From Pristiophorus japonicus (taxonomy: Eukaryota): a stretch of DNA of 64,000 bases. Numbering within the stretch: position 1 is the stretch's first letter; the number at the start of each line of letters is the position of its first letter. The DNA is taken from positions 17,422,001 through 17,486,000 of the forward strand of contig NC_091999.1 in assembly GCF_044704955.1 (NCBI RefSeq), written 5' to 3'. The notes under the pieces were generated by a model, which saw nothing but the letters and a program-made list of their open reading frames with translations, was not told the DNA's origin and made no database searches. Shown here piece after piece: positions 24,725 through 49,091 of the stretch. The position numbers and the translations under genes are program-made.

Positions 24725-25663
24725 GGGGTCCCTTTAAGGGCTACACCCACCCCAAAGTCACAGGCCTTAATAGTCTTTAATTGGCCTCGTTGGTGTTTTG
24801 AGCAGAGGGAGCTCTAAAAGAGTCACACCTCTCCCCTAGTTCCCGAATGGGGAGGGGCCTTGCTCTCTCTGCTCAGTTGTCTTAATTGTTTTATAATTAG
24901 GAGCAAAGGGCTCTCACAGAGAGAGGGGAGAGACAGAGAGAGAGAGAGAAAGAGCGAGGGGGGTATGAAAGAGGGTAGCTGCGAGGGCAGGTCTCCCCTC
25001 ACAGTGATGGGTGGGTGTTTCTTGGGGTACACTCCCCAGATGGCAAAAAACACAGTCTTTGTAGAATGGTCTTCGGGTGGGGGGAGAAGATGTCATCACC
25101 TGGGTTAGCTGGAGCCACCCAGGCACACACTCCCAACGATGTTTAATAGGGTAATTAGTACTACTTCAGCCAGGTAGCTCCAGCTATCCCAGGCTAGGCA
25201 ATGAGGGAGGTGTGATTCAGTGGTGTGTGGGGCCTAGCTGTAAGCAAGACCCCCACACACACTTCCACACACACACACCCGCCGCGATGTTCCGGCCCTC
25301 GAAATGTTTTCTTTCCTCCCCCCACCGATACAATAAAGTCTTTCGGGGAATGCACCAAAACACACCCACCTGTCGAAGATTGTCGAAATGGCTCTCCCTC
25401 CTTCCACACTGGATGGTGTTTTCTCAGGATGTTCTTTTCCCCCTCTCTCCAACTCTCTGTAGTAGCAATAAATGATACATTTTCTGCTCTCCTCCTCTCC
25501 CTCTGGACCTTGAATTGTAGTAAGCCAGCCCTCTCCTTCTCTTCCTGGGCTGGTCTCAGGGTTCACTCTCGGCCTTCCAGACAGGAGCTTCAGCAGGGAA
25601 TTCCTTCTCTCACAGCAGCAATGCTCCAACTGATTAGGCCACGCCTCCAAAGCTCCACCATTG

Positions 25664-26335: not shown

Positions 26336-26730
26336 TCGAATTTCTGAACTGATTTAATGATTGCATGATTGACGTGTGATTTTAGCCATGCATTTAATGA
26401 AGGGATATTCTGCGTCAGTAAATGGTTGACAATCAGTGAACGATAAACAGTTTAAGTCACGAAGCTGCACCTAAAACTCCATGGCCTGTTCTCAGTGTCC
26501 TGCTCCTCATTCATTGCTTCAGTCCGCCCTCGCTCCTTCACATTCGCTGTTCCCGCTTCCCTTCCTCAAACACTATTCAAATCTTAACAGATCAATCTCT
26601 GCCGACAGGTAACTGAATAATTCCCATTGCGAGGTGAAGTATCTAAGACTGAAATATGATCAAAATAAATAAACATCAAGGAGGAGTGATACATAATGTT
26701 ACTGATTTCTTTTCTGTCTCTTTCTTGCAG

Positions 26731-27640
26731 CTAACTTGGTGACAATTGTGATCCTGTCCCGAGGAAAGTGCGGTCTTTCCAGATGTATCACTTGGTACCT
26801 GCTGTCCATGGCAGTGGCAGATCTCCTGGTCATTATCACCGCTGTGATATTAAACCGGATCAGTGGAATTTATCTTCAATTTAGTCTGCTGTCCACCACT
26901 CCAGGCTGTACTATAACATCTATCCTAATTTATGTCGCCACGGATAGTTCCGTCTGGTTAACGGTCGCTTTCACCTTCGATCGATTTGTGGCCATATGAT
27001 GCCAGAAATTGAAACAAAATATTGCACTGAGAAAAATGCGGCTCTGATTATAGTCATGGTCGGTTCCCTGAGCTGTTTAAAAAACATTCCTTCTTATCTC
27101 ACATATGGACCTATGTTCATAACTGACAATGTCCCGTGGTTATGTAACATCAAAGTAATATTTTATACTTCTCCTCTATGGATAGTATATGACTGGCTTG
27201 ACAGAATTTTAACGCCATGACTCCCCTTTCTCCTGATATTGCTGCTCAATGCTCTGACCGTCAGACATATTCTAGCGACCAGCAGAGCCCGCAGGAGGCT
27301 CCGGGCCCATAGCAGTGGAGAGAATCAAAGCGACCCAGAGATGGAGAGACGGAGAAAGTCCATCGTTTTACTCTTTACCATCTCAGGCAGATTCATCCTA
27401 TTATGGACAGTGTACGTTGTAAATTTCTTGTATGTCCGAATTACAAAGAATAATTATTTCTCAGGTTCCAATTTCAAAGACCCAAAATGTATTCTCCAAG
27501 AAACCGGAAATAGTCTTCAGCTTTTGAGTTCCTGCACAAACACGTGTATTTATGCAGTGATCCAGAGTAAATTCAGAGAGGAGTTAATGGATGCGCTGAA
27601 ATATCCAATGAATCTCTTTATAAAATTAATCAAATTATAA
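26731..27640 (+). pseudogene. GPR139-like GPCR pseudogene, exon 2
   Basis: Acceptor TTTCTTGCAG|CT; NLVTIVILSRGKCGLS, MAVADLL, SVWLTVAFTFDRFVAI, DPEMERRRKSIVLL, SSCTNTCIY. Stops at 26997 and 27218 and a 1-nt frameshift near 27012. Confidence 0.92.
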
Positions 27641-29581: not shown

Positions 29582-31599
29582 CCTGCACCAGCCACAATAT
29601 AATGATATGATGGTACGATATGGGCGCACTTACAACGTCACCAACAACACCTTAAAATTGAAATTCTATTTCCCATTGCAAGCTGCTATACTCAGTAAAG
29701 TGAGCAACTGTTTGGCAGGGAGGTATAACAGAAAGTAAAGAAGCATTGCATGCAATTCCTTTCCTGGTAAAAGGCACCAAATTCTTTAATTGGGTAACAG
29801 CATTTGAATAGGATTGACGAATCGCCACGATGTAGTTACTCTCCTCCCTCTCATGTGAATTTGGCGCATCACTCAGAATGCCACTCAGTAACAATAAAGG
29901 AGGAGTTACACACATTTTGGAGGAGCATTGCTCTGGGTAGTATTTCTGAATGGTAATTCAAGCCTCCCTCCCAACTGCACCTCACTTGTTCAAATTAAGA
30001 AAATATTCGGGGATGCAATTTAACCATTCAACGTTATGAATATTGCAAAAGAAGAAATTGGAATCAGTAAATAGAGTGAACGAGAGAAAGTGTGAGAGAG
30101 GAGAGAAAGATTGAAATGGAGAAAGAACAAGAAGCGTAAGAGAACAAAATAAGGTAATAGTAAAAGAAAGCAAAAATGACAGAAACCAAGAAATGTTTAA
30201 CTTGGTGATTGTCCTTCTATACCCGCTGTTTCTCTTAGATGTTTGTATCTATTCTCGAGATATGGGCGTAGATGGCAAGGCCGGAATTTATTGTGCATTA
30301 CTGGCTGCCCTTGAAAAAGTGTTGGTGGGCTTTCTCCTTGCACCGCTGCAGTCCATGTGGTGAATGTGATGTCACGTAGGAAGTTCCAGTATTTCAACCC
30401 ATGGACAATAAAGTAACAACGATAAATGAAAATTCCGGATGGTGCTTGACATATAGAATCACACAATAATACAGCATTGAAGGAGGTCGTCTGACCAATC
30501 TTGTCTGTGCTCGCTCTGTGAAAGAACCTTCTCCAAACTACTCCTTCCATTAACCCCGCTGTGTTTTGGTCGACACGAATACGCTTCTTCTTATAATTTG
30601 CTGTAAAGAGACTTGCAGCATGATTCAAGGGGAATTGGAGCATTGCTGCGGGACAACGGTCCCGTACGTAGAATGATACAACACCTAAGGACGCCGTTAC
30701 GATCCTTTGTGCCTCCTCTTTGCAAGAGCTGTTCAATTAGTCCCACACCTTTGCATTCCGCCATAGAACTGTTCGTTTATTCGTTCAAGTGTTTACACAA
30801 TTCAATTTTGAACGTTGCTACTGACTCTGCTTCCTCCACCCTTTCAGGCTCTGCATTGCGGATCAAAGCAACTCGCCTGGTAAAATAATGTTTCCTCGTG
30901 TCATCTGTGGTTCCTTTCCCAATTACTTTAAATCTTTGTGCTTTGGTTACCGACCCTTCTGCTAGTGGAAACAGTTTCCCTAATTTAATCTCTCAAAACT
31001 CTTCATAATTTTGAACAACTCTATTAAATCTCTTCTTAACCTTCTCTGTTTTAATGAGATCAATGCCAGCTTCTCCAGTCCCTGCACAGAATCCCCTCAT
31101 CCCTGTTATGAAAAGAAATTCAACATGTTGTTTTAAAAGTTCCCTCAATTACAGATATTGCTTTATCGAATCGCTCGATGACAGATATCTTCTTGGTTTG
31201 GTCTGTGGTTTCCCTGGAATTTTTTACATAGTCGATCAGTTTGAAGCACCGTGATTCTCAGTCAACAGAAATAGACGGCGCTGTATTCATTTTCTGCTAC
31301 AAAAATTGACAAAGGAAAAATTAATATTCATTTAAATGACGAGCATCGAATTTTCCTCTTGCAAAATCGGCACCAATTTCCCTGGTGTTATTGCGGTATA
31401 AGGTAAACTGCGTTGCCGGGATCAGGTGCAGGCGTACTTGTAACGATCTGGATCTTCGGAACTGGTGTTGTAAGTACATTTATTTCAGCTTTATCTCCTT
31501 CATATACCGTAATCTCATATTGAGGCTGCATTACCGAACTCCATTGGATTTTACCTGTAAAACTTATTTAAATCATCATTTAATGTCCTTCTTAATTAG

Positions 31600-31808
31600 C
31601 ATAATTTAAACCAGCGCAGGGAACACTTACCACAACCTACCTGCTACCGAGATTATTCTGGTGAAATACATCGGCTATTATGAAGGTAATATATTTTGCC
31701 AGAGACGTTTCTCTGCAGATCTCTAAATTGTGACAAAGTTTACCAGTTTAACCATCTCTGGGCTGCAGATGACCGAACCTGCAATTTTTTTTAACGTGCC
31801 CTGGGGCT
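31600..31808 (+). pseudogene. Decayed T-cell receptor Vdelta/Valpha-like segment (FR2-FR3; FR1 apparently deleted)
   Basis: QRRFSADL*IVTKFTSLTISGLQMTEPAIFF then, frameshifted, (C)ALG immediately before CACAGTG; upstream YRDYSGE CDR2-like stretch; possible leader with donor GTAAGT at 31470 and AG at 31598-31599. Confidence 0.72.
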
Positions 31809-31847
31809 CACAGTGATGGAACTCAGTTCAACCCTCGTACAGAACCT
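31809..31847 (+). promoter_or_regulatory. V(D)J recombination signal sequence, 23-bp spacer
   Basis: Perfect heptamer CACAGTG (31809-31815), 23 nt, nonamer ACAGAACCT (6/9 to ACAAAAACC). Confidence 0.7.
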
Positions 31848-32519
31848 CCCGCCACTTTGTAGATCTTGGCTCCGACTGCTGAAGTCGTATATAACGGCGG
31901 GCAGATCCTGCCACATTGGTTCCTGTGAGCCGACACATACTGAGATGGACCCAAAGGACAGTCTCCTGTATGAAGGGCTCACAATAAACTGATTTCTTGA
32001 TACTCGGGGAAATGTCCTGCAGAGCCAATCAATTGGGCAGGTTGAGTATCTTAGCGACATACACGAAGCAGATGCCAACTGGTTGCAGCTAAAGTTAATT
32101 GTGAGAACAGCATGACAACATTCGCTGGCATCACCTCGGATCTAGAATCAGAATATTAAGCCTGTGCTGGCACTTTGAAAGAGCTATTGTATTAGTCCCA
32201 ATCTTTTCTGAAAGCCCTGCAATTTTCTCCCTTTAGATATTTAACTAATTCCCTTTTGAAAGTTAATATTAAGTCTTTCCCCCCACTCTTTCACGTAGTA
32301 TATTCCTGATCATAACTGCATCAATAAATTCGGCCCTTTTCACCTCAGGCTCCTTTTCCAATTTGCTTAAATCAGAAATCAAACATCAGGAAATATATGT
32401 GTCCCTGGTACTAACTTCAACTGAGTTGCGTACCTGGATTCCGTGGATGACGCCATAATCCCTCGCATACATCATAGCACAGTGATTGGCTGTTTCTTCG
32501 AAGGTTACTGCCGTATCCG

Positions 32520-32815
32520 TAGGATTTGTTCACTGATTTCACGTTGATAGTATCAGAAGGAATGGCGCAGAGCAGGAAGACAGGATCTCCAGGGTGATGT
32601 TCAGTGAGTTCGGCGAATGGTATCAAAGGGAATGAAGCAGAGCAGGGAGGCAGGATCCCTAGGAAGATGTTCAGTGAGTTCAGGGAGATGGTATCAGAAG
32701 GAATGGAGCAGAGCAGTGAGAACAAATCCGTGGTTGATGTTCAGTGAGTTAAGCGAGATGGTATCAGAGGGAATAGTGCAGAGCAGACAGAAAGGCAGTC
32801 CGGGGAAGAAGTGAC
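32520..32815. repeat. ~4 x 70-bp tandem repeat
   Basis: GATGTTCAGTGAGTT at 32596, 32666, 32736. Confidence 0.85.
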
Positions 32816-32829
32816 AGCGGGTCGTGTTT

Positions 32830-33645
32830 AATTTGAGATCATGCACTTTGGCAGAAAAAAATCAAAGAGCCAGTTATTATTTAAATGGAAAAAGATTGCA
32901 AAGTGCCACAGTTCAGCGGGACCTGGGGGTACTTGTGCATGAAACACAAAAGGATGATATGCAGGTACAGCGAGTGATCAGGAAGGCCATTGGTATCTTG
33001 GCCATTATTGTGAAGGGGATGGAGTATAAAAGCAGGGAAGTCTTGCTACAGTTATACAGGATATTGGGGAGGCCACAGCTGGAACTGTGTGCGGTTTTGG
33101 TTTACATATTTATGAAAGGATATACTTGCTTTGGAGGCAGTTCAGAGAAGGTTCACTCGGATGATTCCGGAGATGAGGGGGTTGACTTATGAGGAAAGGT
33201 TGAGTAGTTTGGGCCTCGACTCATTGGAATTCAGATCAATGAGATGTGATCTTATCGAAATGTATCAGATTATGAGGGGGCTTGACAAGGTGGATGCAGA
33301 GAGGATGTTTGCACTGATGGGGGAGATTAGAATTAGAGGGCATGATCTTAAAATATGGGGCCGCCCAATTAAAAAAGAGATGAGGAGAAATTTCCTCTCT
33401 AAGAGGGTTGTAAATCTGTGGACTTCGCTGCCTCAGAGAGCCGTGGAAGCTGGGACATTGAATAACCATATGATAGAAATAGACAGTTTTTTAAACGATA
33501 AGGGGCTATGGGGAGCATGCAGGGAAGTGGAGCTCAGGACATTATCATATCAGCCATGATATTATTGAATGGCGGAGCAGGCTCGAGATGCAGTATGGCC
33601 TACTCCTGTTCCAATTTCTTATATTCTTATGTTTTTATGTATGTT
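32830..33645 (+). mobile_element. CR1 3' fragment
   Basis: VQRDLGVLVH, VQRRFTRMIP, EMRRNFL; tail TTCTTATATTCTTATGT. Confidence 0.88.
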
Positions 33646-34074
33646 CCTCATAAAGGAGAACGGCTGGCAGTGATTACCGTACTCATTTCTGTCTGTGTGG
33701 ACCATATGCATTCAGGTCACCTTTAAAGAGTTGAATCGAAAACAAAACTTACATTCTACGAATGCCCTCCCAGAGAGGAGGATGTCAATCGTATATTTGG
33801 GCAGAACAAAACGACAATGATTTTACATCAGAAATTGATATTGCCCGTGCATCACACATTCTGTATGTAGGTGCCCAACGGGCACAAAGCTCCAAATGTA
33901 CCTGCAGATGCAGCGTGAACCCTCATCTCTCTCTGTCAAAAATAGTCTCTCCACCTGTCGTCTCTTTCTTGGCTTTCTGTATGTATATAACAGAAACATT
34001 GGAGCGCCTGTCTGTGTGTCAGTTAGGCCCCAGTCTTTGGGAATCATTCCAAGAGTTTGTGCTCCCTAGTGTGT

Positions 34075-34380
34075 CTGGAAGTGTTTGATGGGACAGTATC
34101 GAGTGAGCTTTAATCTGTATTTAACCCGTGCTGCTCCTGCCCTGGGTGTGTTTGATGGGACGGTGTAGAGGGAGATTTATTCTATATTAAACCCGTGCTG
34201 TACCTGCCCTGGGAGGGTATGGAGTGCAAGTGTAGATGGAGCTGTTCTCTGTATCTAACCCGTACTGCACCTGCCCTGGGAGTTCTGATGGGACAGTGCA
34301 GAGGGAGCTTTACTCTGTATCTAACCCGTGTTGTACCTGCCCTGAGAGTGTTTGTTCGGACAGTAGAGGGAGATTTGCTC
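34075..34380. repeat. ~67-bp minisatellite (GATGGGACAGTGTAGAGGGAGCTTTACTCTGTATCTAACCCGTGCTGTACCTGCCCTGGG), ~4.5 copies
   Basis: Periodic copies from 34084. Confidence 0.85.
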
Positions 34381-35151
34381 TGACGCATACTATACTGTAT
34401 CGGACTTTGGTGCATCAGAGGCCTGCTCTTTAATATAACCTGGCACGTGAAAGACCATAATATTAGAGGAGACCGCCTGGTCGCTGTGCAGTCATTCCGC
34501 CTCTGGTGCATGATGCAACAAGACAGGGGAAAATGTGCCTTCACTCTGATGGGACACTAGGTGGCGCAGTGGCTCCTTAACCGAAGGGACTTGGATTCAA
34601 ACACAAACAGGATAGGACGCGGGAAGAATAAATTTCATGGAAATAAAACAAATTGTGATAGGGAAATAGAACATGTGAAGGAGCCTTGGAGTAAGGAGTT
34701 CAGCAAAGTCCAATTTATTCCATTTGCCATTGCAGTTTTATTAACAATTTCACAGAGAACAATTTACAGAGAAGGTTTTCAAAAGTTCACACAAATTGAA
34801 TATAACAAATGAGCGTCACATTAATACCAGAACACAGTCGGTCTGAGCTGCCAGCTATCTGTACAACTCTAACAGACAGCAGGGAGAGAAACAGATGTTC
34901 AACACCAAGGGAAGGGAATAATTGTGAATCATGAATGATAAAATGACTTATGTACACATGAGATATTCAAACAATTGTTTAACTCCGAGATACATTTACA
35001 TTATAGCCACGGTTATCTCACACATTTCAAACAGAGAAATGAAAAAGTTGAAGGCAATTGACTCCGGGAATCACCAAGAGGACATAATTTATTTTCAAGA
35101 CACAGTTAACAACCAGAGGAGAAAAATCCACAGCGGCCGAAATTCAGTCAA

Positions 35152-35160
35152 TCACTTGAC
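35152..35160 (-). pseudogene. IGHM: IgM heavy chain TM2 exon (VK*)
   Basis: TTTAACAG|GTC AAG TGA; AATAAA on the minus strand at ~34714 and ~34737. Confidence 0.85.
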
Positions 35161-35298
35161 CTGTTAAAGAGGGATAAAAGTTTGAAGCAGCGTTTTAGTG
35201 ATTTGGCGCATTAATTTCAGGGTTGTTATCAATGAAACATTTAGAGATTTGTCAAACCTCTTCAATCAACTCGAACTGAGTGCATTGAATCTTCTCAC

Positions 35299-35426
35299 CT
35301 TCACCAGAGTGATGGCAGCGCTGTAAGAAATGCTCAGGAAGAACAAGATGATGAATGTGGAAGCGGTTGTCCAGATGTTGCTGCTCTCGTCCTCACACTC
35401 TTCACTCCAGATGTGGTCTGAGGAAT
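35299..35426 (-). pseudogene. IGHM: IgM heavy chain TM1 exon
   Basis: AG|..SSDHIWSEECEDESSNIWTTASTFIILFFLSISYSAAITLVK|GTGAGA; conserved antigen-receptor TM motif, open frame. Confidence 0.93.
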
Positions 35427-36059
35427 CTACGGGATGTAGGGAAGGAAATATATTCAGATCGTTTGTTAATCCAAGATCTCATCTTATTATTACGTATTCT
35501 ATTTTCTTTCTTTAAGGTGTTAGTTTGTTCTCTATTTTAATGTTCAATGTATGCCCTGTGTTAAGTTAATCACGCTCACTAATCTATCTGTGTTCCTAAT
35601 TCCACAGTCGTTCCTTCTTTATGATCCTTCTATAGTCGGTTTTGGAAAATATGACAGTTTTCCTTCAATGTTACAGGCTAATTGATTTTGCATCAATTCC
35701 ATAGGATTTACCATTCGGGAATAGTATGATGTAATATCGAGGGAACTATACTGAATGATATCGATTAATTTAACAATAGCTTCAGATAGCTAATTATTCG
35801 GAGGCTGTCAAAGGGACAGGGTAAGACATCAGATGTGAGTTATAATCTGGATTAATTTGTGGTAGTCAAGGTTCTGAACATAATTAATTTGCATGAGTTT
35901 CCAACTAAGAACTTTGATTCAGTTTGTGTGCAGGACCAGAATATAGGAATGTAAGATATTATGGTATCAGAAATGATTTATTTAATACAATCGTTGCAGA
36001 CTGTCTGTTCAAAGAATTTATTTTAATTCTATGTTCGTCTGTTACCTGACGTATTTTTT

Positions 36060-36700
36060 GCACTTTAGTGTTTGTGTATGTGTGTATGACGATCTCTTCT
36101 TTTGGTGTTGTCTGTGTTTGTGTGTTGATGTGTATTGATATGTAAGTTTGAATGTTTTAATGTGTCATTCCATATATGTATATTTATGTGTAAGTGTTTG
36201 TGATTTTTTGTAAGTTTGTGTATGTTTACATGTAAGCCTTTGTGTGTATATATGCAATTTTTTGTGGTTATGCTTAAATATGTGTGTTCTTTGTAAGTAC
36301 GTTCATGTATGTGTTTTAATGTGTTTGTGTATGGATATGTGTAAGTGTTGTGTATGTTTATGGGTAAGAATGTGTGCATTTATGTGTAACTGTGTATGTT
36401 CGCATGTAAATGTGTGTGTGTGTTATCTGTTAGTTAGTTTGTGTTGAATATGTGTTTATGCGAGTTTAAGTGTGTGTGTTTGTGTGTGTGTGTGTGTGTG
36501 TTCGTGCTTCTGTTTTATTAAAGGGTGTGTTTATTTTTGCTGTCATATTAATGGTGCTGTGGTTCTGACAATGACAGTGTGTATTATATTCTGGGTATGC
36601 GTAATATCTTGTGTCAGTGTGTCAATGTGTGTGTTTATGTGTAAGTCGCTGTGTGTTTATGTGTAAGTCCGTGTTGTGTTTATGTGTAAGTGTGAACTTC
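36060..36700. repeat. Degenerate (TG)n-rich simple repeat
   Basis: Visible. Confidence 0.85.
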
Positions 36701-36819
36701 CACAAAAACATACACTACTAACGTTTACACGCATTCTTCCTCGCTCTGTGTAAATGTGTTCAGTGTGAGACACAATGTGACATCAGCCGACGGAATACAA
36801 CAACTCAATCGATGAGCAT

Positions 36820-37820
36820 CTCTCTCTGGTGGCATTGAGGGGTACAATGAGTTAACAATTGCCCTTTGCCCTCTCGCTTGTGCGGAAGTCGGATACATTG
36901 GGTTAACAATTGCAGATTCCCCTCACTATGCTGGGGTAGTGGGCGGGACAGTAAGTTAACAATTGCCCTTTCCCCTCTCTCTGGTGGGGAAGAGGGTTTA
37001 CATCATCATAGGCAGTCCCTCGCAATCAAGGAAGACTACTTCCACTCTTAGCATGATTTGTTAGGTGGCTGTTCAGTCCAATAGGGAACCACAGTCTCTG
37101 TCACAGGTGGGAAAGACCGTGGTTGCGGGAAGGGGAAGATTTTACAGGTTTGCCGCACGTTCCTTCCACTGCCTGCGCTTGATGTCTGAATGCTCTTGGC
37201 GACGAGAGACGAGGGGCTCAGCGCCCTCCCGGATGTACTTCCTCCATTTAGGGCGGTCTTTGGCCAGGGACTCTCAAGTGTCAGTGGGTATGTCGCACTT
37301 TATCAGGAGGCTTTGAGGTCGCTTGTAACGTTTCCCCTGCCCACCTTTGGCTCATTTGCCATGGACGAGTTCCGAGTAGAGCGCTTGCTTTGGGAGTCTA
37401 GTGTCTGGTGTGCAGACAATGTGGCCGGCCCAGAGCAGCTGATCAAGTGTGGTCAGTGCTTCTCTGCTGGGATGTTGGCCTGGACAAGGACGCTAATGTT
37501 GGCGCGTCTGTCCTGCCAGGGAACTTGTAGAATCTTGCAGAGACGGAGTGAGGTTACAGTGGATTAACAATTGCCGTTTCCCCTCACTCTGGTGGGGCAG
37601 TGGGAAGTACAGTGGGTTCAGAATTGCCATTTCACCACTCTTTGGTACGGCAATGGCGTTACAGTGGGTGAATAATTGCCCTTTCATCTCTCTCTGGTAG
37701 TGCAGTGGGAGGTACAGTTGGTTCAGAATTGCCCTTTCACCTCTCTGGTGGGGTAGTGGGAGGTACAGGGGTATAACAATTGCGATTTCACCTCTCTCTG
37801 GTGGGGCGATGGGAGATACA
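36820..37820. repeat. ~52-bp minisatellite (GGTACAGTGGGTTAACAATTGCCCTTTC...) interrupted by an RTE fragment
   Basis: AACAATTGCC core at 36854, 36905, 36958 and again 37566-37780. Confidence 0.8.
37001..37545 (-). mobile_element. RTE-clade LINE 3' fragment
   Basis: Reverse (ATG)n tail CATCATCATAGGCAGTCCCTCG; minus-strand similarity to the RTE C-terminus; same end at 63854. Confidence 0.75.
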
Positions 37821-38249
37821 GTTCGTGTTCGTGTGTGGACCTCATTTCAGATCCCAGAGTGTGCGATGCTGCCAAATAAAACTGGCCCCAAATCTGAAGG
37901 GATGGACAACACGAGAAACAAGGGCACCGAGATATAAATGTACAGCATTTGTTTATCGGGAAATAGAACTATGCAGATTCTCCCAGTGGGACGAAAGTTG
38001 CTGAAATGACTTTGAGGTATCCTGTCATTAAAGAGCTTCTCTTTGTCTCCAACCTATATATGAGCTGAGAGCGCTGAATGTACCAGCTTTGGCCACAAGT
38101 CCGACAAATATTCTGCTTCAGATTAACAGCCCGCCGCTTGGCTAAAATAGGAAACAATATTAATTGAGCGGCTGTGTGTGTAACTCACGATTGGAAGAAA
38201 AGGCCTTTATTGTTTTTTATTTAAGAACTGAAAGGCAATCGAGAGATTC

Positions 38250-38632
38250 TCATTGATAAGAATTGATGTTGTCCATCAGAACAAGGGAAATATTCACAAA
38301 ACTGGGTTTACCTCTGGATTTATTGACGGTTCTGTTGGTGATCTTCAAGGAGATCGCTTCATGTCCAACCACACAGGAGTAAGAGGCGCCGCTGGCCCAC
38401 TCGTTGGCTGCAATGGATAGCAGGCTGTACACAAAGAATGATCTGCTGCCATTCTCCGCCATCACCTCAGTGTTCTTGTAGTTGACCGGCTTGTCCTTGA
38501 CGGTCCATTTGACGAAGATCTCTCGGGGGGAGAAACCTCTCACTAAGCAGGTGAGGCTGACCAACCTCTGAGCAGAGACTTCTTCTGCCGAGGGCAGGAG
38601 GACAGAAACGGCTGCTTCCCATGGATCTTTCG
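38250..38632 (-). pseudogene. IGHM: IgM Cmu4 exon with secretory tailpiece
   Basis: [25 protein letters not shown]...[16 protein letters not shown]...G|[19 protein letters not shown]; internal TM donor G|GTAAA at 38312/38311; AATAAA at 38206-38211. Confidence 0.95.
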
Positions 38633-39513
38633 CTGTAGAACAGTTACAATAAAGGCCAATGAACTGGACAGTTCCAGAGAAAATGGTGGGAGTTTTAATC
38701 TAATAAAACAGGCGTGTTGAGGTTGTGAGGGTGATTAAATTGGTAAAAATCGGAATCCCGACATCAACCCGACCACTCCTGGTTGCAATATTTTATTTGA
38801 ATAATATATTTATAGGAGGCTGGAATCCTCTATTTTAACCTCTATTCGGTTTTTAACTGTAGCTGGTCCGGCTTGACATACTGTGTAAATCCCAGCAGTT
38901 ACAGCTGCACCCAGGTGGTTATTGCCCTTACACCTCCCTCCTGGATCCAGGGTCCCTGCCTAACCCACCCCCCGCGATCCGAGAGCTTCTCACTCGGATT
39001 TCAATCCTCCTCTTCTCCCGGGTGGCCTGTGAGACCACCACCACCAACTCGCCTTCTCCGTTTAAATTCGCCAATGTCCCGTAGTTACACGTCAGAGAAA
39101 TATGCTCTTCGTTGACATTTAACGCTTTATTATTTCCCCTCTGGGGCCTCTCTGGTTTACCATCCCGCAGCAGAGTGAACATAATCTTTCTCTCTGAAAT
39201 CTTGAAGGGTTAGACTTGAATTTACTGCACAGATCAAGGCGATTTGGCCAACCGGTCTATGCCTGTGTTTATGCTCCATACAAGCCTCAACCTGACTCAG
39301 TTCATCTAACGCTAATAACATACCCTTCTATTCCTTTATCGCTCATGGACTTATCCAGTTTCCCCTAAAATACATAACCTCAGGTCAAAGAGTGGGATTA
39401 CCAAACTGAATGATCAGAGTAGCCATTAAGCACTTTATGTAATGAATTGGCCCTTGAACATGCACCGGAAATATTCACAGTGTCTGACTTATTGCAACAG
39501 TCTCCCCGCTCAC

Positions 39514-39811
39514 CCTTTTCCTTGTGGATAGAATCTCTGATAGGAGTCGGCATATCCTGCTGGCTCACCACGCAGTAGAACTTATCCCCACTCAGCGAGT
39601 CTTGTGTCGAGATGTTTAAGTTGCTGATCACTATGTTGGGATCCTCACCGGGTTGGACGGCAATCTCTGATTTCAAAGCCTCCTTTTCTCTGGTCCAGGT
39701 AACGGTGAGCCCATAAGGAGCGTCAGACACGACGCAGGTTAAGGTCACCGTCGCCTCCCGTAAGTCCTGTGCCAGTGACTGTGATTTTTGAATCGCTGCA
39801 TGGGACATCCA
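39514..39811 (-). pseudogene. IGHM: IgM Cmu3 exon, frameshifted
   Basis: [42 protein letters not shown]. Exon is 298 nt (not 3n); a deletion removes the LPPxxE segment, so the phase-1 frame stops early. Confidence 0.92.
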
Positions 39812-41214
39812 CTGCAAAACAGGAATGAAAGTCAGGAAAAGCTGCATCTTCAGAATCAGGACACAATATTTAGCCTTAACTCGTTCAAGGGGGCTAAATC
39901 ACTTTTGAGATAGCAACCTCTCGCTGTTGCTTTAACACCGACGTTATTGGAAGGACAATGAATTGGCAACGATTCGGGGAGATCTGTAACATTTCCTGTG
40001 TATTTGCTGCCAGAGTCACCTGTAATTGGCTGTGAAGCAAATAACCAGCGTAAAACGGGAATACATTGTGGTGCAATTGTGTTAGGCACTGAATAGCGCT
40101 CTTCCTGAAATCCCTTGCTCCTTTATACCCATCTATAGATCCTTGCATCCAAACGCATCTCCGCTGGTTGTAATAGTGAAGCCCAAATAGCCCGAAGGTC
40201 AAGAGGTCTACACCAGCATTACTCTCGTTCGAAACAAGTGTCAATTTAATTTCAGGATTTATGGGACAACAGGAAACAAAGCTAAGTTTCTGGTCACTTG
40301 CTGTGATCTTTATTGCGGTGAAAATGTGCAGGAACCAGTCACAGCCCCCGTCAGAGGAGAAGTGCAAGGTCCGGAGAATGGAGTTCCAAAGGGTCTTTTG
40401 TGGTGGGGCATCATTTTTAATGATGTGAGGTAGTTTGTTAATTTCTGTCATTACTGAACATTTATCATGTCTGGTGAGAGAGAGTCAGAGTTAAATATGA
40501 CCTCAGGGCATTAATAGCAACATAGGAACAGGAGGAGGCCATTCATCCCATCTATCCTCTCCCGCAATCCAGTTATATCAGGGCTGATCTACACTCAACA
40601 CCATCTTCACGCCTTGGTTCTGTAACCCTTGATAATCTTGCCTAACAAAAATCTATCAATCTCACTTTTCAACTTTTCAATTGAAACCAAGCTTCAGCAG
40701 CTTTTGGGGAGGGAAATCCAGACTTTCTGTGAAGAAATCCTTCCTGACATCACTTCTGCACGATCCAGCTCTAACTTTAAGATTCTGCTATTTGTACTGG
40801 ACTTTTCCAACAAAGGAAATAATTGTTCTACATCTACTTGATTAATTGTATTTATCTACTTGAACACCTCAATTGTATCACCTCTTAATATTTTCTACTC
40901 GTCTCCTCATCATTTTATTTTATTAGTCCCGGTATAATTCGGGTAAACCTGAACTTTATCGCCTCCATGACCAGTATATCCTTCCTGAGGTGCGGAGCCC
41001 AGAATTGGACTCAGCGCTCTGAATAGGGTAGATGCCCATTCCAACAGTGGGTTCCAGGACAGTTAGCAGTAAAGGGTTCCAGACTCCGACTGCCACTCCG
41101 TATATGATCAGCCAACTCAGGATAAACCTGAGAATAAGGGCACGTTACTCACTGCCTGAAATCAGAGCAGGGGGAAAGCTTCGTTGGCGAGTTTATTAAA
41201 TCCTGAACAATGAG

Positions 41215-41640
41215 GAATCCTGAACCAGAAGATCGTGGGTTGAAGTCCCACTCCAGATACTTGATCACAAAATGTAAGCTGAGATTCCCAGTGCAGTACT
41301 GGGGGCGTGGTGCACTATCGGAGGTGCCGTCTTTCGGATCACGTGTTAAACCGAGGATCCGTCTGGCCTCAGGTGGACGTAAACGTTCCCCTGGAATTAT
41401 TTCAATGAAAAGCCGAGGAGTTCTCCCTGGTGGCCTGGGAATATTTATAGCTCAAAAAACACCACTAAGCAAAATATAATCTGGTCATTATCACACTGCT
41501 GTTTGTGGGAGATTGCTGTGCACTAAATGATTGCTGCACGTTGTACATTACAACTGTGATCACATTTCACAAATTAATTCATTGGCTGGCAAGCGATTTG
41601 GTTCAGACTAAGGTAGCTGAAGGCGCTGTTTCTAGGCAAG
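41215..41640 (+). mobile_element. Near-complete Deu-SINE (SacSINE1-like)
   Basis: tRNA-like GTGGGTTGAAGTCCCACTCCAGA head, GGAGGTGCCGTCTTTCGGAT..TAAACCGAGG, GCTGTTTGTGGGA..TGCTGTGC, CATTACAAC tail. Confidence 0.75.
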
Positions 41641-41777
41641 TTTGTAATCACAATAATACACAAACTGCATGATTGGAAATTAGGAACAGTTCGGTGCTTT
41701 TTACTAATTTCAATAAAAGTCCTGACTGAGATCAACGCTCAGAATGGTCTGTAACCTCCTGGGATTGTACCTCTTAC

Positions 41778-42095
41778 CCGGAGATCTGATGAAGTTACGG
41801 CTTTGCGTGACCCCTTCATGAGTGACCTGGCAGGTGTAGACCGAGCCGGTGAACCATTCCTCGGCGGGGACTGTCAGCCGACTGGCCGCCGAGAAGTTCC
41901 CGTTCACCTCAAATACGGGAGAGGTGACGGAGCCCGAATCTAGGAGTTGTCCACTCTCCAGCCAATTCACGGTCAGTGACTTTGGCCGGAAATCGATGAT
42001 TGAACACACGGCGCTTGCATATCTGCTGCTGGTGATTTGTTCAGTAGAACTCAGCGTGAGGAGAACAGTTGGAGGGATGATGTCGCGTTCAGGAT
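41778..42095 (-). pseudogene. IGHM: IgM Cmu2 exon (open frame, 318 nt)
   Basis: [37 protein letters not shown]...[27 protein letters not shown]; intact AG and GTAAG. Confidence 0.95.
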
Positions 42096-42239
42096 CTTCA
42101 AGAGAAGACAAATTATTGACAATGCTTGCAAAATCAATCATTAAGAAATGCAAAGTGTCCTTATATTTTAACAGGTTCTTCGCTGTCAGACTAACACTAA
42201 CCTGGCATTTACAGAGAGCAGAACTGTGCATAGTCTTCT

Positions 42240-42625
42240 CAGTGTGATCTGAAGACCGGAACTGTGCATAATATTCTTAGTATGATCTGGAGACCAGAAC
42301 GTTACACGGTATTCCAAGAGTGATTAGGAGACCAAAACTGTAAACAATATTCTTAGTATGATATGGAGACCTGAACTGTGGACAGTATTCTAAATGTGAT
42401 ATGGAAACCATAACTGTGCATAATATTTTAAGTATGATAGGGAGACCAGAACTATACACAGTATTTTAATTGTGATATGGGAGACCAGAACGGTGCACAG
42501 TATTATAAGTGCGATAGGGAGACCAGAACTATACACAGTACTCTAAGTGTGATATGGAGAACAGAACTGTACACAGCATTCCAAGTGTAATATGGAGACC
42601 AGAACTGTACACAGCACTCTAAGTG
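42240..42625. repeat. ~10 x 38-bp minisatellite derived from a CR1 segment
   Basis: Unit GTGATATGGAGACCAGAACTGTACACAGTATTCTAA.. is the reverse complement of the CR1 LEYCVQFWSP codons. Confidence 0.85.
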
Positions 42626-42704
42626 TCGTCTAACCAAATTTCTGTCCAAGTTGAACATACCTTCTCATCTTATCACAGTTTGCCCTGTATCCCACATCAC
42701 TAAC

Positions 42705-42800
42705 CTAGCATTGTGATGGCCTAGAACGACACACCACGTCAAACCTCGCAGTAGATTGTGCTGCTGCACACCTCTGACTCGGTGATGGTTAACCGGCTCT
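42705..42800 (-). pseudogene. IGHM: IgM Cmu1 exon, 3' remnant only
   Basis: [35 protein letters not shown] matches the shark Cmu1 end ([22 protein letters not shown]..W); two nonsense changes; 5' two-thirds missing. Confidence 0.85.
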
Positions 42801-43469
42801 TTTTCGTTCTTCCAGGAAAGGCTGATGATTTTATCTTTCTTTCAGGAAAAGCTGGTGATTTTTGGTTAGTAGTCCATCGCCAAACAGCGGAAGCAGTTTC
42901 TCCCTACTCAGCGCACTGTGATCTGGGCTCTATTCCATTCTATTGAATGGACGTTTCTTGAGTTTCCTCCTTCCTCCCACTCAATAAATAATTCGAATTA
43001 AATACCATTCCAAAATCCGGTTAATTGGAAGTTTCTCCTTAAAACGGCCCATTTCAATTCCCATTGTAGTACTTGTTATATAACAATGACCTGGACTTGG
43101 TTATAGAGAATCCATCTTGAAGTCCGAAGATGAAGCAAAACATGGCTACGTAGCCAATAGTGAGCATGATAGTAACAGACTTGAAGAGGAATCAGAGAGA
43201 CGAGTGAAATGGGCAGGGACATGGCAGGTGCAATTTAATGCGGATAATTGAGAAGCGGTGCACTTTGGGTGGAACATGGAGAGGCAGTATCATCTAAATA
43301 GTATTGTTTTGAGGGGATACAAAAACAAAAATATCTGGATATTGCACCCGTGTCAATATTACTAAAAATGTTCGGAAATGCTCACTGAAAGCCGAATTGT
43401 ATGCGTTTGTATGTGGGGTTGGGGTTGAAGCCCAGATTCTCAACGAGACAGAATCCAGACTCTCACAGG

Positions 43470-43551
43470 ACCAGGATAGCCGAATGGTTGAGGCGTTGGC
43501 CTTAAAATTCAATGGGTTTTTCCCGCGTGGGTTCGTACCCAACTCCTGGTA
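43470..43551 (+). tRNA. tRNA-Leu(TAA) pseudogene
   Basis: ACCAGGATAGCCGAATGG...CTTAAAA...GTTCGTACC..CCTGGTA; multiple mismatches to vertebrate Leu-TAA. Confidence 0.8.
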
Positions 43552-44276
43552 TCTCTTTAATTTAACACGGATTTCCTACCATTCTGATCAGTGAGACCGG
43601 ATTTTCATCGGTTGAATCAGCAAATTTCTGTAACAATGTGACACTCTGAACCGATAATGAAATGAAATTGTGAAATGTATCTGTGTCGCTCGGTCTCTGC
43701 CTCTCTCTCTCTCTTCAGAGTGTTGTGCATATGTTTGAGTCTTTGTCTCTCTCTGTCTGTCCCTGTTTCTCTGTTTATCTCTGTCTCTCAATCTGTCTCT
43801 TTCTCACGGTGCCACGTCTGTTCCAATGGGATTCTCTCAGACTCTTTGCCTGACTGGCTCTCTCTTTCCCATCATTTCGGTCTGTCCATGTCTTTGCCTG
43901 TCTCTGTTAGTCCCTGCCTGTAAGCTGAGAAGTATTTCCATCATTTTCTGTTTTAGTCTCTATCGCTCTCTCTCAATCTGTCTCTCTCCTTGTCACTGTC
44001 TTTATCATTGTCTTTCTCTCATTCTTTCCCTCTCTCTCTTAATAGATCACACACACACATCTCTGTATATGTATATGTTTGAGTCTTTTTCTCACTCAGT
44101 CTGCCTCTCCTTCTCAGTCTCACACTTTCTGTCTCTCGTTGTCTCTATCTCGCTGTCCGTCTCTCCCTGTTTGTCGGTTTGTCTCTGTCTCTCAATGTGT
44201 CTGTCGACTTCTCATGGTGTCCAATTCTGTTCACACTGGCTCGATTCCTGCTCTGACAAAACTGGCACTCGACAGT

Positions 44277-44348
44277 TCCTCGTTAGTATAGTGGTGAGTA
44301 ACCCCGCCTGTCACGCGAGAGACCGGCGTTCAATTCCCCGACGGAGAG
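44277..44348 (+). tRNA. tRNA-Asp(GTC), best-preserved copy, probably pseudogene
   Basis: TCCTCGTTAGTATAGTGGTGAGTAACCCCGCCTGTCACGCGAGAGACCGGCGTTCAATTCCCCGACGGAGAG; about 5 differences from vertebrate Asp-GTC, some breaking stems. Confidence 0.88.
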
Positions 44349-44542
44349 GCAGTTGTTTCAAAATATAGAATTTTACTTCTGTTTCTTGGTAGAGATTCAT
44401 ATTAAAAAGTTCCAGAGCAAGAAAGAACTGTAAAGGTACATGTAGAAGATAGAGCCTCTTCCAGATTTTTAGCAAACGGAGACTTTTTCACGATTCTTTG
44501 GCCGTCTGCTGCACAGAGATGGATGACTGAGTTTTTTCTGAG

Positions 44543-45548
44543 TGTTGTTTACATTGTACATTAATGATTTAGACGAGGGGATTAAATGCAGTATCTCCAA
44601 ATTTGTGGATGACACTAAGTTGGGTGGCAGTGTGAGCTGCGAGGAGGATGCTATGAGGCTGCAGAGTGACTTGGATAGGTTAGGTGAGTGGGCAAATGCA
44701 TGGCAGATGAAGTATAATGTGGGTAAATGTGAGGTTATCCACTTTGGTGGTAAAAACAGAGAGACAGACTATTATCTGAATGGTGACAGATTAGGAAAAG
44801 GAAGGTGCAACGAGACCTGGGTGTCATGGTACATCAGTCATTGAAGGTTAGCATGCAGGTACAGCAGGCGGTTAAGAAAGCAAATGGCATGTTGGCCTTT
44901 GTAGCGAGGGGATTTTAATACAGGGGCAGGGAGGTGTTGCTACAGTTGTACAGGGCCTTGGTGAGGCCACACCTGGAGTATTGTGTACAGTTTTGGTCTC
45001 CTAACTTGAGCAAGGACATTCTTGCTATTGAGGGAGTGCAGCGAAGATTCACCAGACTGATTCCCGGGATGGCGGGATTGACCTATCAAGAAAGACTGGA
45101 TCAACTGGGCTTGTATTCACTGGAGTTCAGAAGAATGAGAGGGGACCTCATGGAAACGTTTAAAATTCTGACGGGTTTAGACAGGTTAGATGCAGAAAGA
45201 ATGTTCCAAATGTTGGGGAAGTCCAGAACCAGGGGTCACAGTCTGAGGATAAGGGGTAAGCCATTTAGGATCGAGATGAGGAGAAACTTCTTCACCCAGA
45301 GAGTGGTGAACCTGTGGAATTCTCAACCACAGAAAGTAGTTGAGGCCAATTCACTAAATATATACAAAAGGGAGTTAGATGAAGTCCTTACTACTCGGGG
45401 GATCAAGGGTTATGATGAGAATGCAGGAAGGGGGTACTGAAGTTTCATGTTCAGCCATGAACTCATTGAATGGTGGTGCAGGCTAGAAGGGCTGAATGGC
45501 CTGCTCCTGCACCTATTTTCTTTGTTTCTATGTTTCTATGTTTCTATG
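44543..45548 (+). mobile_element. Young 5'-truncated CR1
   Basis: Near-identical to 1886-2980; one frameshift; (TTTCTATG)n tail. Confidence 0.95.
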
Positions 45549-45582
45549 AATCTCTACCTTGTACTCACAAGGTTTGCACAGG

Positions 45583-45665
45583 ACTAGGGTAGCCGAGTGG
45601 TTAAGGCGTTGTCCTTAAAATTGAATGGGGCTTTTCCCGCGTGGGTTCGTGCCCTACTCCTGGTA
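45583..45665 (+). tRNA. tRNA-Leu(TAA) pseudogene
   Basis: GCCGAGTGGTTAAGGCGTTG.CCTTAAAA...GGGTTCGTGCC..CTCCTGGTA. Confidence 0.8.
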
Positions 45666-45906
45666 TCTCTTCAATTTGACACGGATTTCCTCCCATTCTG
45701 ATCAATAAAACCGAATTTTCATCGGTTGAATCAGCAATTTTCTGTAACAATGTGACACTCTGAACCGATAATAAAATTAAATTATGAAATGCATTTGTGT
45801 CGCTCGGTCTCTGCCTCTCTCTCTTCAGAGAACTGTGCATGCGTTGGGATGTTTGAGTCTTTGTCTCTCTCAGTCTGACTCACTCTGTCTGTCCATGAAA
45901 GACACA

Positions 45907-45986
45907 GTACTCGTGGCCGAGTGGTTAACGCGACGGAAGAGAAATCCATTGGGTTATCCCGCCAGGTTCGAATCCTGCCAACAACG
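45907..45986 (+). tRNA. tRNA-Ser(AGA) pseudogene
   Basis: GTACTCGTGGCCGAGTGGTTAA...AGAAATCCATTGGG...GGTTCGAATCCTGCC; damaged anticodon arm. Confidence 0.8.
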
Positions 45987-46282
45987 ATTCTCAGCATTTT
46001 TCATTCTATTTCACAATTTAACCGGTTCTCTGGCAAACTGATCCTGAGATAAATGGAATAACGTCCCACACCTTTCAACACTGACAGTTTATTCTCATTT
46101 TTATTAATCTGCAATATTCACGATACATCCGTTTCAAAAATCGCAAACATCAGTCAAAGTTGCGACAGTGATTCAGCCTGTATATCCCTCGAGATGTCTA
46201 AGGCATCTGTGCATGCCCGTTGGTGCGTGCAAATTTTTGGTTATGTGTGTGTGTGTCTCTGTGTCTCTCTATCTCTATATAT

Positions 46283-46930
46283 GGCATGTTCGCCTTCATA
46301 GCTGGGTGATTTGAGTATAGGAGCAGGGATGTCTTACTGCAGTTGTACAGGGCCTTGGTGAGGCCATACCTGGAATGTTGTGTTCAGTTTTGGTCCCCGA
46401 ATCTGAGAAAGGACGTACTTGCTATTGAGGGATTACAGCGAAGGTTCACCAGCATGATTCCCGGGATGGCAGGATTGACATCTGAGGAGAGACTGGATCA
46501 ACTGGACTGGTATCCACTGGAGTTTAGAAGAATGAGAGGGGATCACACAGAAACATATAAAATTCTGACGAGATTGGACAACTTAGAGACTGGAAGAATG
46601 TTCTCGTTGCTGGGGTGTTTGAGACCAAGGATTAAATTCTAAAAATAAGGGGTAAGCCATTTATGACCGAGATGAGGAGAAACTTCTTCACTCAGAGAGT
46701 GGTTAACCTGTGAAATTTTCTACCGCAGAAAGTCGTTGAGGCCAGTTCGTTAGATATAATCAAAAGGGAGTTAGATATGGCCCTTATGGCTAAAGAGATC
46801 AAGGGGCATGGAGAGAAAGCAGGAAATGGGTACAGAGGTTGAATGATGAGCCATGATCTTATTGAATGGTGGTGCAGGTTCGAAGGGCCGAATGTCATAT
46901 TCCTGCACCTAATTTCTATGTTTCTATGTT
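46283..46930 (+). mobile_element. CR1 3' fragment co-amplified in tDNA unit 1 (paralogues ~49628-50335, ~53750-54478)
   Basis: Same CR1 segment with the same downstream flank (TTGATGCGTGTATAT) in each unit. Confidence 0.88.
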
Positions 46931-47451
46931 GATGCGTGTATATTTTTGCTTATTGTGTGTGCGTGTATCTGTGTATGTCTATCTGTATGTATGTATCTGT
47001 GTATGTGCAAATGTCTGTGGAAATCATCACCATGAATTTGGTACGTCCTGGAACTTTTAAAAAAACTTGGGGAAATAATACGGTTGTGAACTTTGGTTCA
47101 GTGGCTCCATTCTCGACTGAAGCAGGAGGTTGTGTGTGTAAGTCCCACTCCTGAGACTTGAAAACATCATCTTGGATGACAGTCAAATGCATTATTTGGG
47201 GAATGTTGCATTGTTGAAGCTGTTGACCATCGGCTGAAATTTTAAATTGAAGCTCCATCTGCCCCCTCGGGTGTATGTGAAAGTTCCCAGAGCCTTAGTC
47301 GAAAAAGAATCGGAGAGCTGCACCCGTGTCAATATTACGAAAAATGTTCGTAAATGCTCCCTGAAATCCAATGTGTCTGTGTGTCACTGTGGGGGTGGAG
47401 CTGAAGCCCAGATTCTCACCGAGGTAGAGACCAACCACTGACATGATCACG

Positions 47452-47534
47452 ACCAGGATGGCCGAGGGGTAAAGGCGTTAGACTTAAGATGTAATGGGTT
47501 TATACCCACGTGGGTTCAACCCCGCCTTCTGGTA
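47452..47534 (+). tRNA. tRNA-Leu(TAA) pseudogene
   Basis: ACCAGGATGGCCGAG..GACTTAAGAT...TGGTA. Confidence 0.82.
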
Positions 47535-48718: not shown

Positions 48719-48790
48719 TTCTCGTCCGCATAGTGGTGAGTATCCCCGCCTGTTACGTTGAAGAACCGGGTTCAATTCCCCAATGAAAAA
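48719..48790 (+). tRNA. tRNA-Asp pseudogene (anticodon mutated to GTT)
   Basis: TAGTGGTGAGTATCCCCGCCTGTTACG..GGGTTCAATTCCCC; broken acceptor stem. Confidence 0.75.
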
Positions 48791-49009: not shown

Positions 49010-49091
49010 GTAGTTGTGGCTGAGTGGTTAACGCGATTTTCTAGAAATCCTTTGGGTTTACCCCGCGCAGGAACGAATCCTGCCGGCTCTG
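49010..49091 (+). tRNA. tRNA-Ser(AGA) pseudogene
   Basis: GTAGTTGTGGCTGAGTGGTTAA..CTAGAAATCC..CCCCGCGCAGG; B-box damaged. Confidence 0.78.

What the first reader, a model, noticed from the sequence alone, without database searches (positions are those of the whole stretch)
31415..42800. TCR Vdelta-like segment with 23-RSS facing a V-less IgM constant locus
Seen: a V segment missed by the ORF track (RFSADL*IVTKFTSLTISGLQMT..AI..(C)ALG + CACAGTG-23-ACAGAACCT) on the + strand, ~3.3 kb beyond the TM2 exon of a minus-strand Cmu1-TM2 cassette. The FR3 signature is TCR delta/alpha-like, not VH-like. Knowledge: cartilaginous fish mix Ig and TCR parts (IgHV-TCRdelta rearrangements, NAR-TCR, Ig-like V segments in the TCRalpha/delta locus), and inverted V segments 3' of C can rearrange by inversion. 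Inference: a relic of an IgH cluster embedded in or co-duplicated with TCRdelta V segments; an intact paralogue could make the reciprocal TCRV-IgM chimera. This copy is non-functional and no D or J is visible.
Basis: partly seen in the sequence, partly recalled or inferred. Interest (0 to 1): 0.75.

Follow-up and report, generated by a model that had tools for sequence, protein, structure and literature searches.

The report
Dead TCR V pair beside IgM
Two broken T-cell-receptor V genes sit back to back 3.3 kb past a broken shark IgM gene that has no V in view, likely ordinary leftovers of the already described shark region where T-cell-receptor and antibody genes are interleaved rather than a hybrid receptor.

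Summary
The + strand relic (31628/31694-31808, RSS 31809-31847) belongs to a shark TCR Vdelta family, not VH. It has no FR1, one stop and a frameshift. The IgM cassette (CH1-CH4, secretory tail, TM1, TM2) is real. CH1 carries 4 stops, CH3 is frameshifted, and no VH, JH or Jdelta was found in the window. A 2025 paper (PMC12227049) already reports TCR alpha/delta V exons between shark IgH clusters; its table S1 lists V-less IgM and TCR V pseudogenes interleaved. Best reading: birth-and-death debris of that antigen-receptor complex (0.75). New here: the tight 3' spacing (3.3 kb, against 28 kb or more for 9 of 9 white-shark IgM rows) and the fused V pair. The geometry would allow a TRDV-D-J-Cmu inversion in an intact paralogue, but nothing here shows one. 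No contig spans V to TM2, so the join is not independently confirmed.

The parts
31628..31808 (+). 5'-truncated TCR Vdelta-family pseudogene: FR3 secure from 31694, FR2/CDR2 tentative from 31628; stop near 31724, frameshift before the second Cys; no FR1 or leader
   Evidence: (30 of 58 identical to horn-shark P0003, E 3e-10 within the window)
31809..31847 (+). 23-RSS: perfect heptamer, 23-nt spacer, nonamer with 3 mismatches; points toward Cmu
   Evidence: alignment across it to the read-through of P0003
   Evidence: PDB TRDV3, E 0.006; profile positions 1-92, score 46.5, above all 95 shuffles; Trp codon in a second copy
31216..31253 (-). decayed RSS of the - strand V: heptamer CACGGTG, spacer 21-22, nonamer with 3 mismatches; points away from Cmu
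31555..31630 (-). 76-nt leader intron of the - strand V (GTAAGT ... TTTTACAG)
   Evidence: sequence
31631..31671 (-). ambiguous overlap: 41-nt ATG-initiated leader-like exon on - (wrong phase), or FR2/CDR2 of the + V; the fusion point of the two V genes lies at about 31625-31693
   Evidence: 186 of 2000 shuffles; 11 and 19 of 400 shuffles
32830..33640 (.). LINE-like repeat fragment between the V pair and TM2
   Evidence: self-BLAST to other copies in the window, very high read depth; the LINE label rests on recalled similarity of the translations
35152..35160 (-). IgM TM2 exon (VK, stop)
35297..35427 (-). IgM TM1 exon, open
   Evidence: (67-69% to P0015, P0016)
38250..38633 (-). Cmu4 with secretory tail, open, 3-residue deletion
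   Evidence: 110 of 130 to P0014
39512..39812 (-). Cmu3, frameshifting deletion near 39778
41778..42096 (-). Cmu2, open
42709..42904 (-). Cmu1 remnant: first 20-26 residues absent, internal deletion, frameshift, 30-nt duplication, 4 stops in 53 codons
43470..50954 (+). tRNA-like repeat array (5 matches) starting 0.6 kb upstream of Cmu1, where the J-C intron and V-D-D-J would be expected

Best explanation
This is a pair of broken TCR alpha/delta V genes lying back to back 3.3 kb beyond a broken IgM constant cassette with no V, D or J in the window, likely dead duplicates from the shark antigen-receptor complex, where TCR V segments are scattered among IgM miniclusters. SHOWN: both V relics are TCR-type, both are disabled, Cmu1 and Cmu3 are disabled, and no VH or J is present. 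INFERRED: the V segments were once ordinary members of the dispersed V pool that joined by their 23-RSS to 12-RSS D-delta or J-alpha segments of the distant TCR locus, by deletion or inversion according to strand. A deletion of the shared 5' region fused two head-to-head V genes and removed the 5' half of the + V. Separately, the IgM cluster lost its V-D-D-J end. Further deletions, or a copied piece of the complex, left the relics adjacent. The locus is predicted to make no receptor.
For: V identity; 21 of 22 weak PDB hits (E 0.13-0.89) are TCR alpha/delta chains, 1 a light chain, 0 VH; a whale-shark member of the same V family is spliced to a C region that best matches human TCR delta over full length. 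Second V; a second copy in runs X1/X3 has the canonical Trp codon and keeps Cys23 through a silent change. Lesions; one contig spans 31003-31407 without gaps, so the 3' frameshift of the - V is shared and not an assembly slip. No VH or J. Precedent: PMC12227049 states that TCR alpha/delta V exons lie between IgH clusters; table S1 lists 'IgM (missing V)', 'IgM pseudo?' and 'TCRadV pseudo' interleaved in white shark, V genes on both strands, and one minus-then-plus V pair 451 bp apart.
Against: [quoted passage not shown] Spacing is tighter than in print: in white-shark table S1 the nearest TCR-type V model is 28-203 kb from each of 9 of 9 IgM rows and on the 5' side in 8 of 9, although gene models miss relics like these. 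Decay is uneven: 4 stops in 53 CH1 codons against 0 in 377 codons of CH2-TM1 (P 2e-4, post hoc), which simple neutral decay does not predict. No contig spans V to TM2. The fusion point is ambiguous. The - V profile score (46.5) exceeds the shuffle maximum (43.9) only narrowly.
Confidence: 0.75

Rival explanations
1. Relic of a purpose-built unit in which an inverted TCR Vdelta 3' of Cmu joins the cluster's D segment by inversion and gives a TRDV-D-JH-Cmu chain, the reverse of the known IgHV-TCRdelta chimeras.
For: The + V is inverted relative to Cmu and its 23-RSS faces the cluster, the geometry of the inverted V after C that PMC12227049 mentions for TCR beta and delta. A 12-RSS on the 5' side of shark IgH D segments is recalled, not tested. 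Spacing is unusually tight. Transfer of a NAR-TCR V onto an IgW cluster is the published proposal for the origin of IgNAR.
Against: No D, J or credible 12-RSS in the window. The + V lacks FR1 and a leader. Its partner V points away from Cmu. The V pair looks low-copy while IgM TM looks multi-copy (rough). A review states that Ig cluster segments tend to share orientation and rearrange by deletion (PMC5192425 section 6.1). No passage I saw reports TCR V on Cmu; eight searches raised none by title or abstract start, but the two most relevant papers were not held.
Confidence: 0.06
2. The V pair and the IgM cassette are each real, but their adjacency is an assembly join across the LINE and tandem repeats at 32.5-34.4 kb.
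For: No listed contig piece spans the 4.9 kb laid; pieces break at repeats (31838-32611, 33745-34109, 34982-35332). IgM 3' ends are multi-copy and so prone to mis-joins.
Against: No N gap between 14379 and the window end. All 30 of 30 bins have depth in X1 and X3, and the non-repeat pieces on both sides of the LINE have similar depth (72 and 62 in X1). The juxtaposition fits the published layout.
Confidence: 0.07
3. The V pair is debris, but the Cmu cassette stayed useful after losing V and CH1, as a short CH2-CH4-tail/TM acceptor for inter-cluster switching or as a V-less transcript.
For: All 4 stops fall in CH1; CH2, CH4, tail, TM1, TM2 and their splice sites look intact and are as similar to intact IgM as intact IgMs are to each other. 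A sawshark gene model also runs VH-J-CH2-CH4 without CH1 and CH3 (P0017). Inter-cluster switching and V-less IgW transcripts are reported.
Against: CH3 is frameshifted and CH4 lacks 3 residues. Gene conversion among many IgM copies, or an earlier lesion in the parent cluster, would also explain uneven decay. P0017 is a predicted model and is no closer to the window than P0014 in CH4 (92 of 106 against 110 of 127).
Confidence: 0.08

Closest known systems
Elasmobranch antigen-receptor complex (AgRC), Flajnik et al. 2025, PMC12227049
   Same: TCR alpha/delta V exons, including pseudogenes and both strands, interleaved with IgM clusters, including V-less and pseudo IgM (text and table S1).
   Different: Here the V is 3.3 kb 3' of TM2, against 28-203 kb and mostly 5' in the 9 white-shark IgM rows. 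Two V relics are fused head to head. Linkage to TCR C and PSMB5 is not shown for this window.
Shark TCR Vdelta family of P0003 (Heterodontus XP_067869908.1) and P0007 (Rhincodon XP_048475117.1)
   Same: FR3, RSS spacer and 3' flank align; P0007 joins this V type to a delta-like C.
   Different: The window copy lacks leader, FR1 and CDR1 and has a stop and a frameshift. Automatic database names for the family are mixed (TCR alpha-like, iota-like).
Human TRDV3 (PDB 7lli, 1tvd)
   Same: Best and only PDB matches to the FR2-FR3 piece of the - strand V (E 0.006 and 0.016). That TRDV3 lies inverted 3' of Cdelta is recalled.
   Different: A 26-residue match does not show orthology. The TRDV3-like relic here is on the same strand as Cmu; the inverted one is the other V.
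IgHV-TCRdelta trans-rearrangements, TAILV and NAR-TCR
   Same: Same genomic neighbourhood mixing Ig and TCR parts.
   Different: These put Ig-type V on TCR delta C. The window V relics are not VH-type and no reverse chimera is shown.
Shark IgM minicluster pseudogene
   Same: CH1-CH4, secretory tail, TM1 and TM2 in order, 72-85% identical to P0014 in CH2-CH4.
   Different: No V-D-D-J in the 21 kb upstream; a tRNA-like array begins 0.6 kb from CH1.

Membership tests
TCR alpha/delta V segment (+ strand relic) | Sequence closer to TCR alpha/delta V than to VH | tested here: met
TCR alpha/delta V segment (+ strand relic) | 23-RSS directly after the V exon | tested here: met
   31809-31847; position, not pattern alone, is significant
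TCR alpha/delta V segment (+ strand relic) | V family seen joined to TCR delta C | tested here: met
   P0007 matches human TCR delta best over full length; shared alpha/delta use not excluded
Functional TCR V gene (+ strand relic) | Split leader, FR1 with Cys23, open frame through Cys104 | tested here: not met
   no FR1; stop and frameshift
TCR alpha/delta V segment (- strand relic) | Full V exon with Cys23, Trp41, Cys104, TCR-type sequence | tested here: met
   profile positions 1-92; FR1/CDR1 alone 2 of 1000 shuffles; Trp41 is Lys in the window but Trp in the X1/X3 copy
TCR alpha/delta V segment (- strand relic) | 23-RSS | tested here: inconclusive
   heptamer with 1 mismatch, spacer 21-22, weak nonamer
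Functional TCR V gene (- strand relic) | Open reading frame from leader to RSS | tested here: not met
   about three frameshifts and stops
Antigen-receptor complex (AgRC) | Physical linkage to TCR alpha/delta C, IgW/IgNAR and PSMB5 | not testable with these tools
   no whole genome held
IgM minicluster | Four Cmu exons, secretory tail, TM1 and TM2 | tested here: met
   CH1 and CH3 broken
IgM minicluster | [quoted passage not shown] | tested here: not met
   no VH or JH hit in the window; only 21 kb upstream is visible
TAILV / IgH-like V in the TCR delta locus | VH-type sequence | tested here: not met
   scores 28-41 to VH-type domains; the horn-shark VH scores (28, 38) do not exceed the shuffle minimum of 38
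NAR-TCR supporting Vdelta | Leaderless Vdelta with an extra CDR1 Cys behind a NAR V-D-J unit (features recalled) | not tested
   the + V has lost that half; no NAR V query was run
TRDV-Cmu chimeric receptor locus (hypothetical) | Intact inverted TRDV plus D and J with compatible RSS in one Cmu cluster, and chimeric transcripts | tested here: not met
   this copy has neither D nor J nor an intact V; paralogues and transcripts could not be examined

The most novel reading that the evidence does not exclude
In this shark lineage some IgM clusters carry an inverted TCR Vdelta a few kb past TM2, and in an intact paralogue RAG inverts it onto the cluster's D-JH to make a TCR Vdelta-IgM heavy chain: the missing reciprocal of the IgHV-TCRdelta chimeras and a living model of the V swap proposed for IgNAR. 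The early loss of CH1 here would fit a light-chain-free intermediate.
Probability: 0.06. Interest if true: 0.78.

Novelty: new member of a known kind. Interest (0 to 1): 0.24.

Why it matters
As it stands, it adds one base-level example to a layout so far described from gene-model tables: TCR V pseudogenes can lie within 3.3 kb of an IgM 3' end, in the orientation that inversion would need, and automatic annotation misses them. That makes the question of why shark Ig-TCR chimeras are described only as Ig V on TCR C easy to test by a genome survey and Cmu 5' RACE. If the reciprocal chimera exists, it would be a new antigen-receptor chain and would bear on the origin of IgNAR. Without it, this is ordinary birth-and-death debris.

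Tried and rejected
No whole genome is held, so mapping and a paralogue survey could not be done. A word-index search with the + V relic found nothing (6 candidates, none at E <= 1). Pfam gave no family for the + V relic or for two pieces of the - V. PDB gave nothing for the FR1 piece of the - V. Of 3 hits in the HMMER library search, 2 were rejected as repeat-driven (a mollusc titin-like protein and an unnamed repeat protein). A leader-like reading on + at 31430-31475 was rejected: it is the antisense of the - V. The best JH-like hit (+, near 41326, score 35.0) equals the top of 30 shuffles and was rejected. A 12-RSS-like site at 35101-35128 (+) is at chance level (2 matches, 10 of 100 shuffles reach 2). 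The VH profile's best score of 41.0 lies inside the shuffle range. No RNA holder listed; X5 and X6 have no cover over the V pair and are of unknown kind: neither says anything on expression. 4 of the 7 listed runs were laid, on 30800-35700 only, and most variant rows were cut from the output (625 not shown). One row (position 31511) was read in the wrong frame and is not used. No ESM Atlas comparison is available for the - V. The scan's earlier notes returned nothing. A paper search on shark GPR139 expansion gave nothing relevant by listing. PMC7909615 and PMC7039070 were not held.
Full report
1. Setting. The window is repeat-rich vertebrate DNA; its nearest named protein matches are from sharks and rays, so I treat it as elasmobranch (inferred). 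No whole genome is held. The only N gaps are at 12942-13151 and 14251-14379.

2. The RSS pattern alone is expected 0.77 times by chance in this window, so it counts only by its position. Read with X at its stop, the relic found 3 hits among 1.84 billion proteins. Two were repeat-driven; the third, P0003 (E 5.7e-5, 55%), is a horn-shark V-set gene model. P0003 brought in 8 more relatives (9 of 15 candidates including itself). They align to 31628-31792, and P0003 also aligns across the RSS and flank. One relative, P0007, is joined to a C region whose best full-length PDB matches are human TCR delta chains. A frameshift-aware profile of 9 TCR V domains scores the relic 81.7 against a shuffle maximum of 43.9 in 95 shuffles; a 3-sequence VH-type profile and a full horn-shark VH find nothing above shuffles anywhere in the window. 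In PDB, 21 of 22 weak hits are TCR alpha/delta chains and none is VH. The relic has no FR1 or CDR1 on + (542 of 1000 shuffles score as high).

3. A motif scan showed an FR3 end on the - strand. Reading it out gave an acceptor at 31554, FR1, Cys23, CDR1, FR2, FR3, Cys104 and a CACGGTG heptamer at 31253. It spans profile positions 1-92 with score 46.5, narrowly above all 95 shuffles; its FR1/CDR1 alone is reached by 2 of 1000 shuffles. A stop-free 29-residue piece hits only human TRDV3 in PDB (2 hits, E 0.006 and 0.016). Pairwise scores are 44-86 to 9 TCR V and 34-41 to 3 VH-type domains. Independent support comes from runs X1 and X3 (one sample), whose contigs differ from the window by about 3% and carry the canonical Trp codon at 31437-31439 and a silent change in Cys23. 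A contig over 31003-31407 has no gaps, so the 3' frameshift is shared. The two V genes are back to back. The stretch 31628-31693 can be read as FR2/CDR2 of the + V (186 of 2000 shuffles unanchored; 11 and 19 of 400 anchored) or as an out-of-phase leader exon of the - V with a perfect donor; I cannot decide between them. Either way one gene lost its 5' half at this junction.

4. The IgM cassette. CH2, CH3 and CH4 are C1-set domains, 72-85% identical to a secreted shark IgM, P0014, with tail, TM1 and TM2 in place. CH1 lacks its first 20-26 residues and has a frameshift and an internal deletion; CH3 has a frameshifting deletion near 39778; CH4 lacks 3 residues. All 4 stops fall in the 53 CH1 codons and none in 377 codons of CH2-TM1 (P 2e-4, post hoc). 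No VH, JH or Jdelta was found, and 12-RSS matches are at chance level. A tRNA-like array starts at 43470, 0.6 kb upstream of CH1. Only 21 kb upstream is visible.

5. Is the neighbourhood real and repeated? Four of 7 listed runs were laid on 30800-35700. X1 and X3 have depth in 30 of 30 bins, but no piece spans the stretch; pieces break at the LINE-like repeat (32830-33640) and a tandem array (34075-34382). The join is therefore plausible but unconfirmed. Listed variants are carried by 1-8 contigs over the V pair and 15-19 over TM1. The tool warns that depth is no copy number, so this is only a hint that the V pair is not a standard companion of IgM 3' ends. No RNA holder was listed, which says nothing on expression.

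6. What is known. [quoted passage not shown] Its white-shark sheet interleaves 'IgM (missing V)', 'IgM pseudo?' and 'TCRadV pseudo'. From those coordinates, the nearest TCR-type V model is 28-203 kb from each of 9 of 9 IgM rows, on the 5' side in 8 of 9; of 7 minus-then-plus V neighbours one pair is 451 bp apart, its second member labelled TCRbV (left out: UrIg2, IgL, PSMB5, IgW, the two VH-only rows and the TCRa VVC row). PMC5931798 (passages) describes chimeras as IgM or IgW V on TCR D-J-C. PMC4279169 (passages) gives inter-cluster switching and the proposed invasion of an IgW cluster by a NAR-TCR V. PMC5192425 (passages and section 6.1) says cluster segments tend to share orientation and rearrange by deletion. 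PMC3964593 (passages) notes Ig-TCR linkage in elephant shark; its supplementary note XI was not read and may bear on this. PMC7909615 and PMC7039070 were not held, and Criscitiello 2010 was seen only as a reference. I met no report of TCR V on Cmu in searches (listings only, apart from the papers above), which is a weak negative given those gaps.

7. Mechanism. Most likely (0.75) these are dead duplicates from the interleaved complex: dispersed TCR V genes that once served the distant D-delta/J-alpha segments (inferred), fused by a deletion (inferred), next to an IgM cluster that lost its V-D-D-J end (shown within the window). But this copy lacks every other part, and no intact paralogue or transcript is shown (0.06). 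An assembly join (0.07) and a CH1-less cassette that stayed in use for a time (0.08) remain open.

8. Verdict. Real, partly mis-delimited, and a new instance of a published arrangement. Interest 0.24. The reciprocal TRDV-IgM chimera is not excluded (probability 0.06, interest 0.78 if true) and can be tested directly by a genome survey and Cmu 5' RACE.

Noticed in passing
window 31254-31671 (-): Second TCR alpha/delta-type V pseudogene, TRDV3-like by PDB, back to back with the reported V; a second copy in runs X1/X3 keeps Trp41.
   Followed up: yes
window 42709-42904 against 35297-42096 (-): Uneven decay of the Cmu cassette: 4 stops in 53 CH1 codons, 0 in 377 codons of CH2-TM1. A sawshark gene model (P0017) also lacks CH1 and CH3 and reads the same intron ORF before CH2.
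   Followed up: partly
window 26706-27640 (+): Intronless rhodopsin-family GPCR pseudogene in three frames (7tm_1, E 3.5e-9 and 1.8e-5), 3.6 kb from the V pair. A resemblance to the GPR139-like genes of shark annotations is recalled, not tested.
   Followed up: partly
window 10270-10704 (-): ORF that looks by eye like a GPCR first helix, but no Pfam hit and no tblastn match to the other GPCR relic.
   Followed up: partly
window 43470-50954 (+): Repeated block with tRNA-Leu-like and tRNA-Asp-like genes and CT-rich spacers, duplicated at 76-87% identity, directly upstream of Cmu1; may mark the break that removed V-D-D-J.
   Followed up: partly
window 18704-24733 (-): Young-looking GC-rich non-LTR retrotransposon with ORF1, endonuclease-like and reverse-transcriptase-like frames; Tx1/L1-like by recall.
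   Followed up: no
window 57682-61299 (-): Decayed LTR retrotransposon with gag-, protease-, RT- and integrase-like frames; Gypsy-like by recall.
   Followed up: no
window 35101-35128 (+) and 38885 (-): RSS-like sites (12-spacer after TM2; 22-spacer in the CH3-CH4 intron) with no coding segment beside them; chance level.
   Followed up: yes
window 42214-42626: 38-nt tandem array (10.8 copies) in the CH1-CH2 intron, derived from a LINE-like fragment.
   Followed up: no
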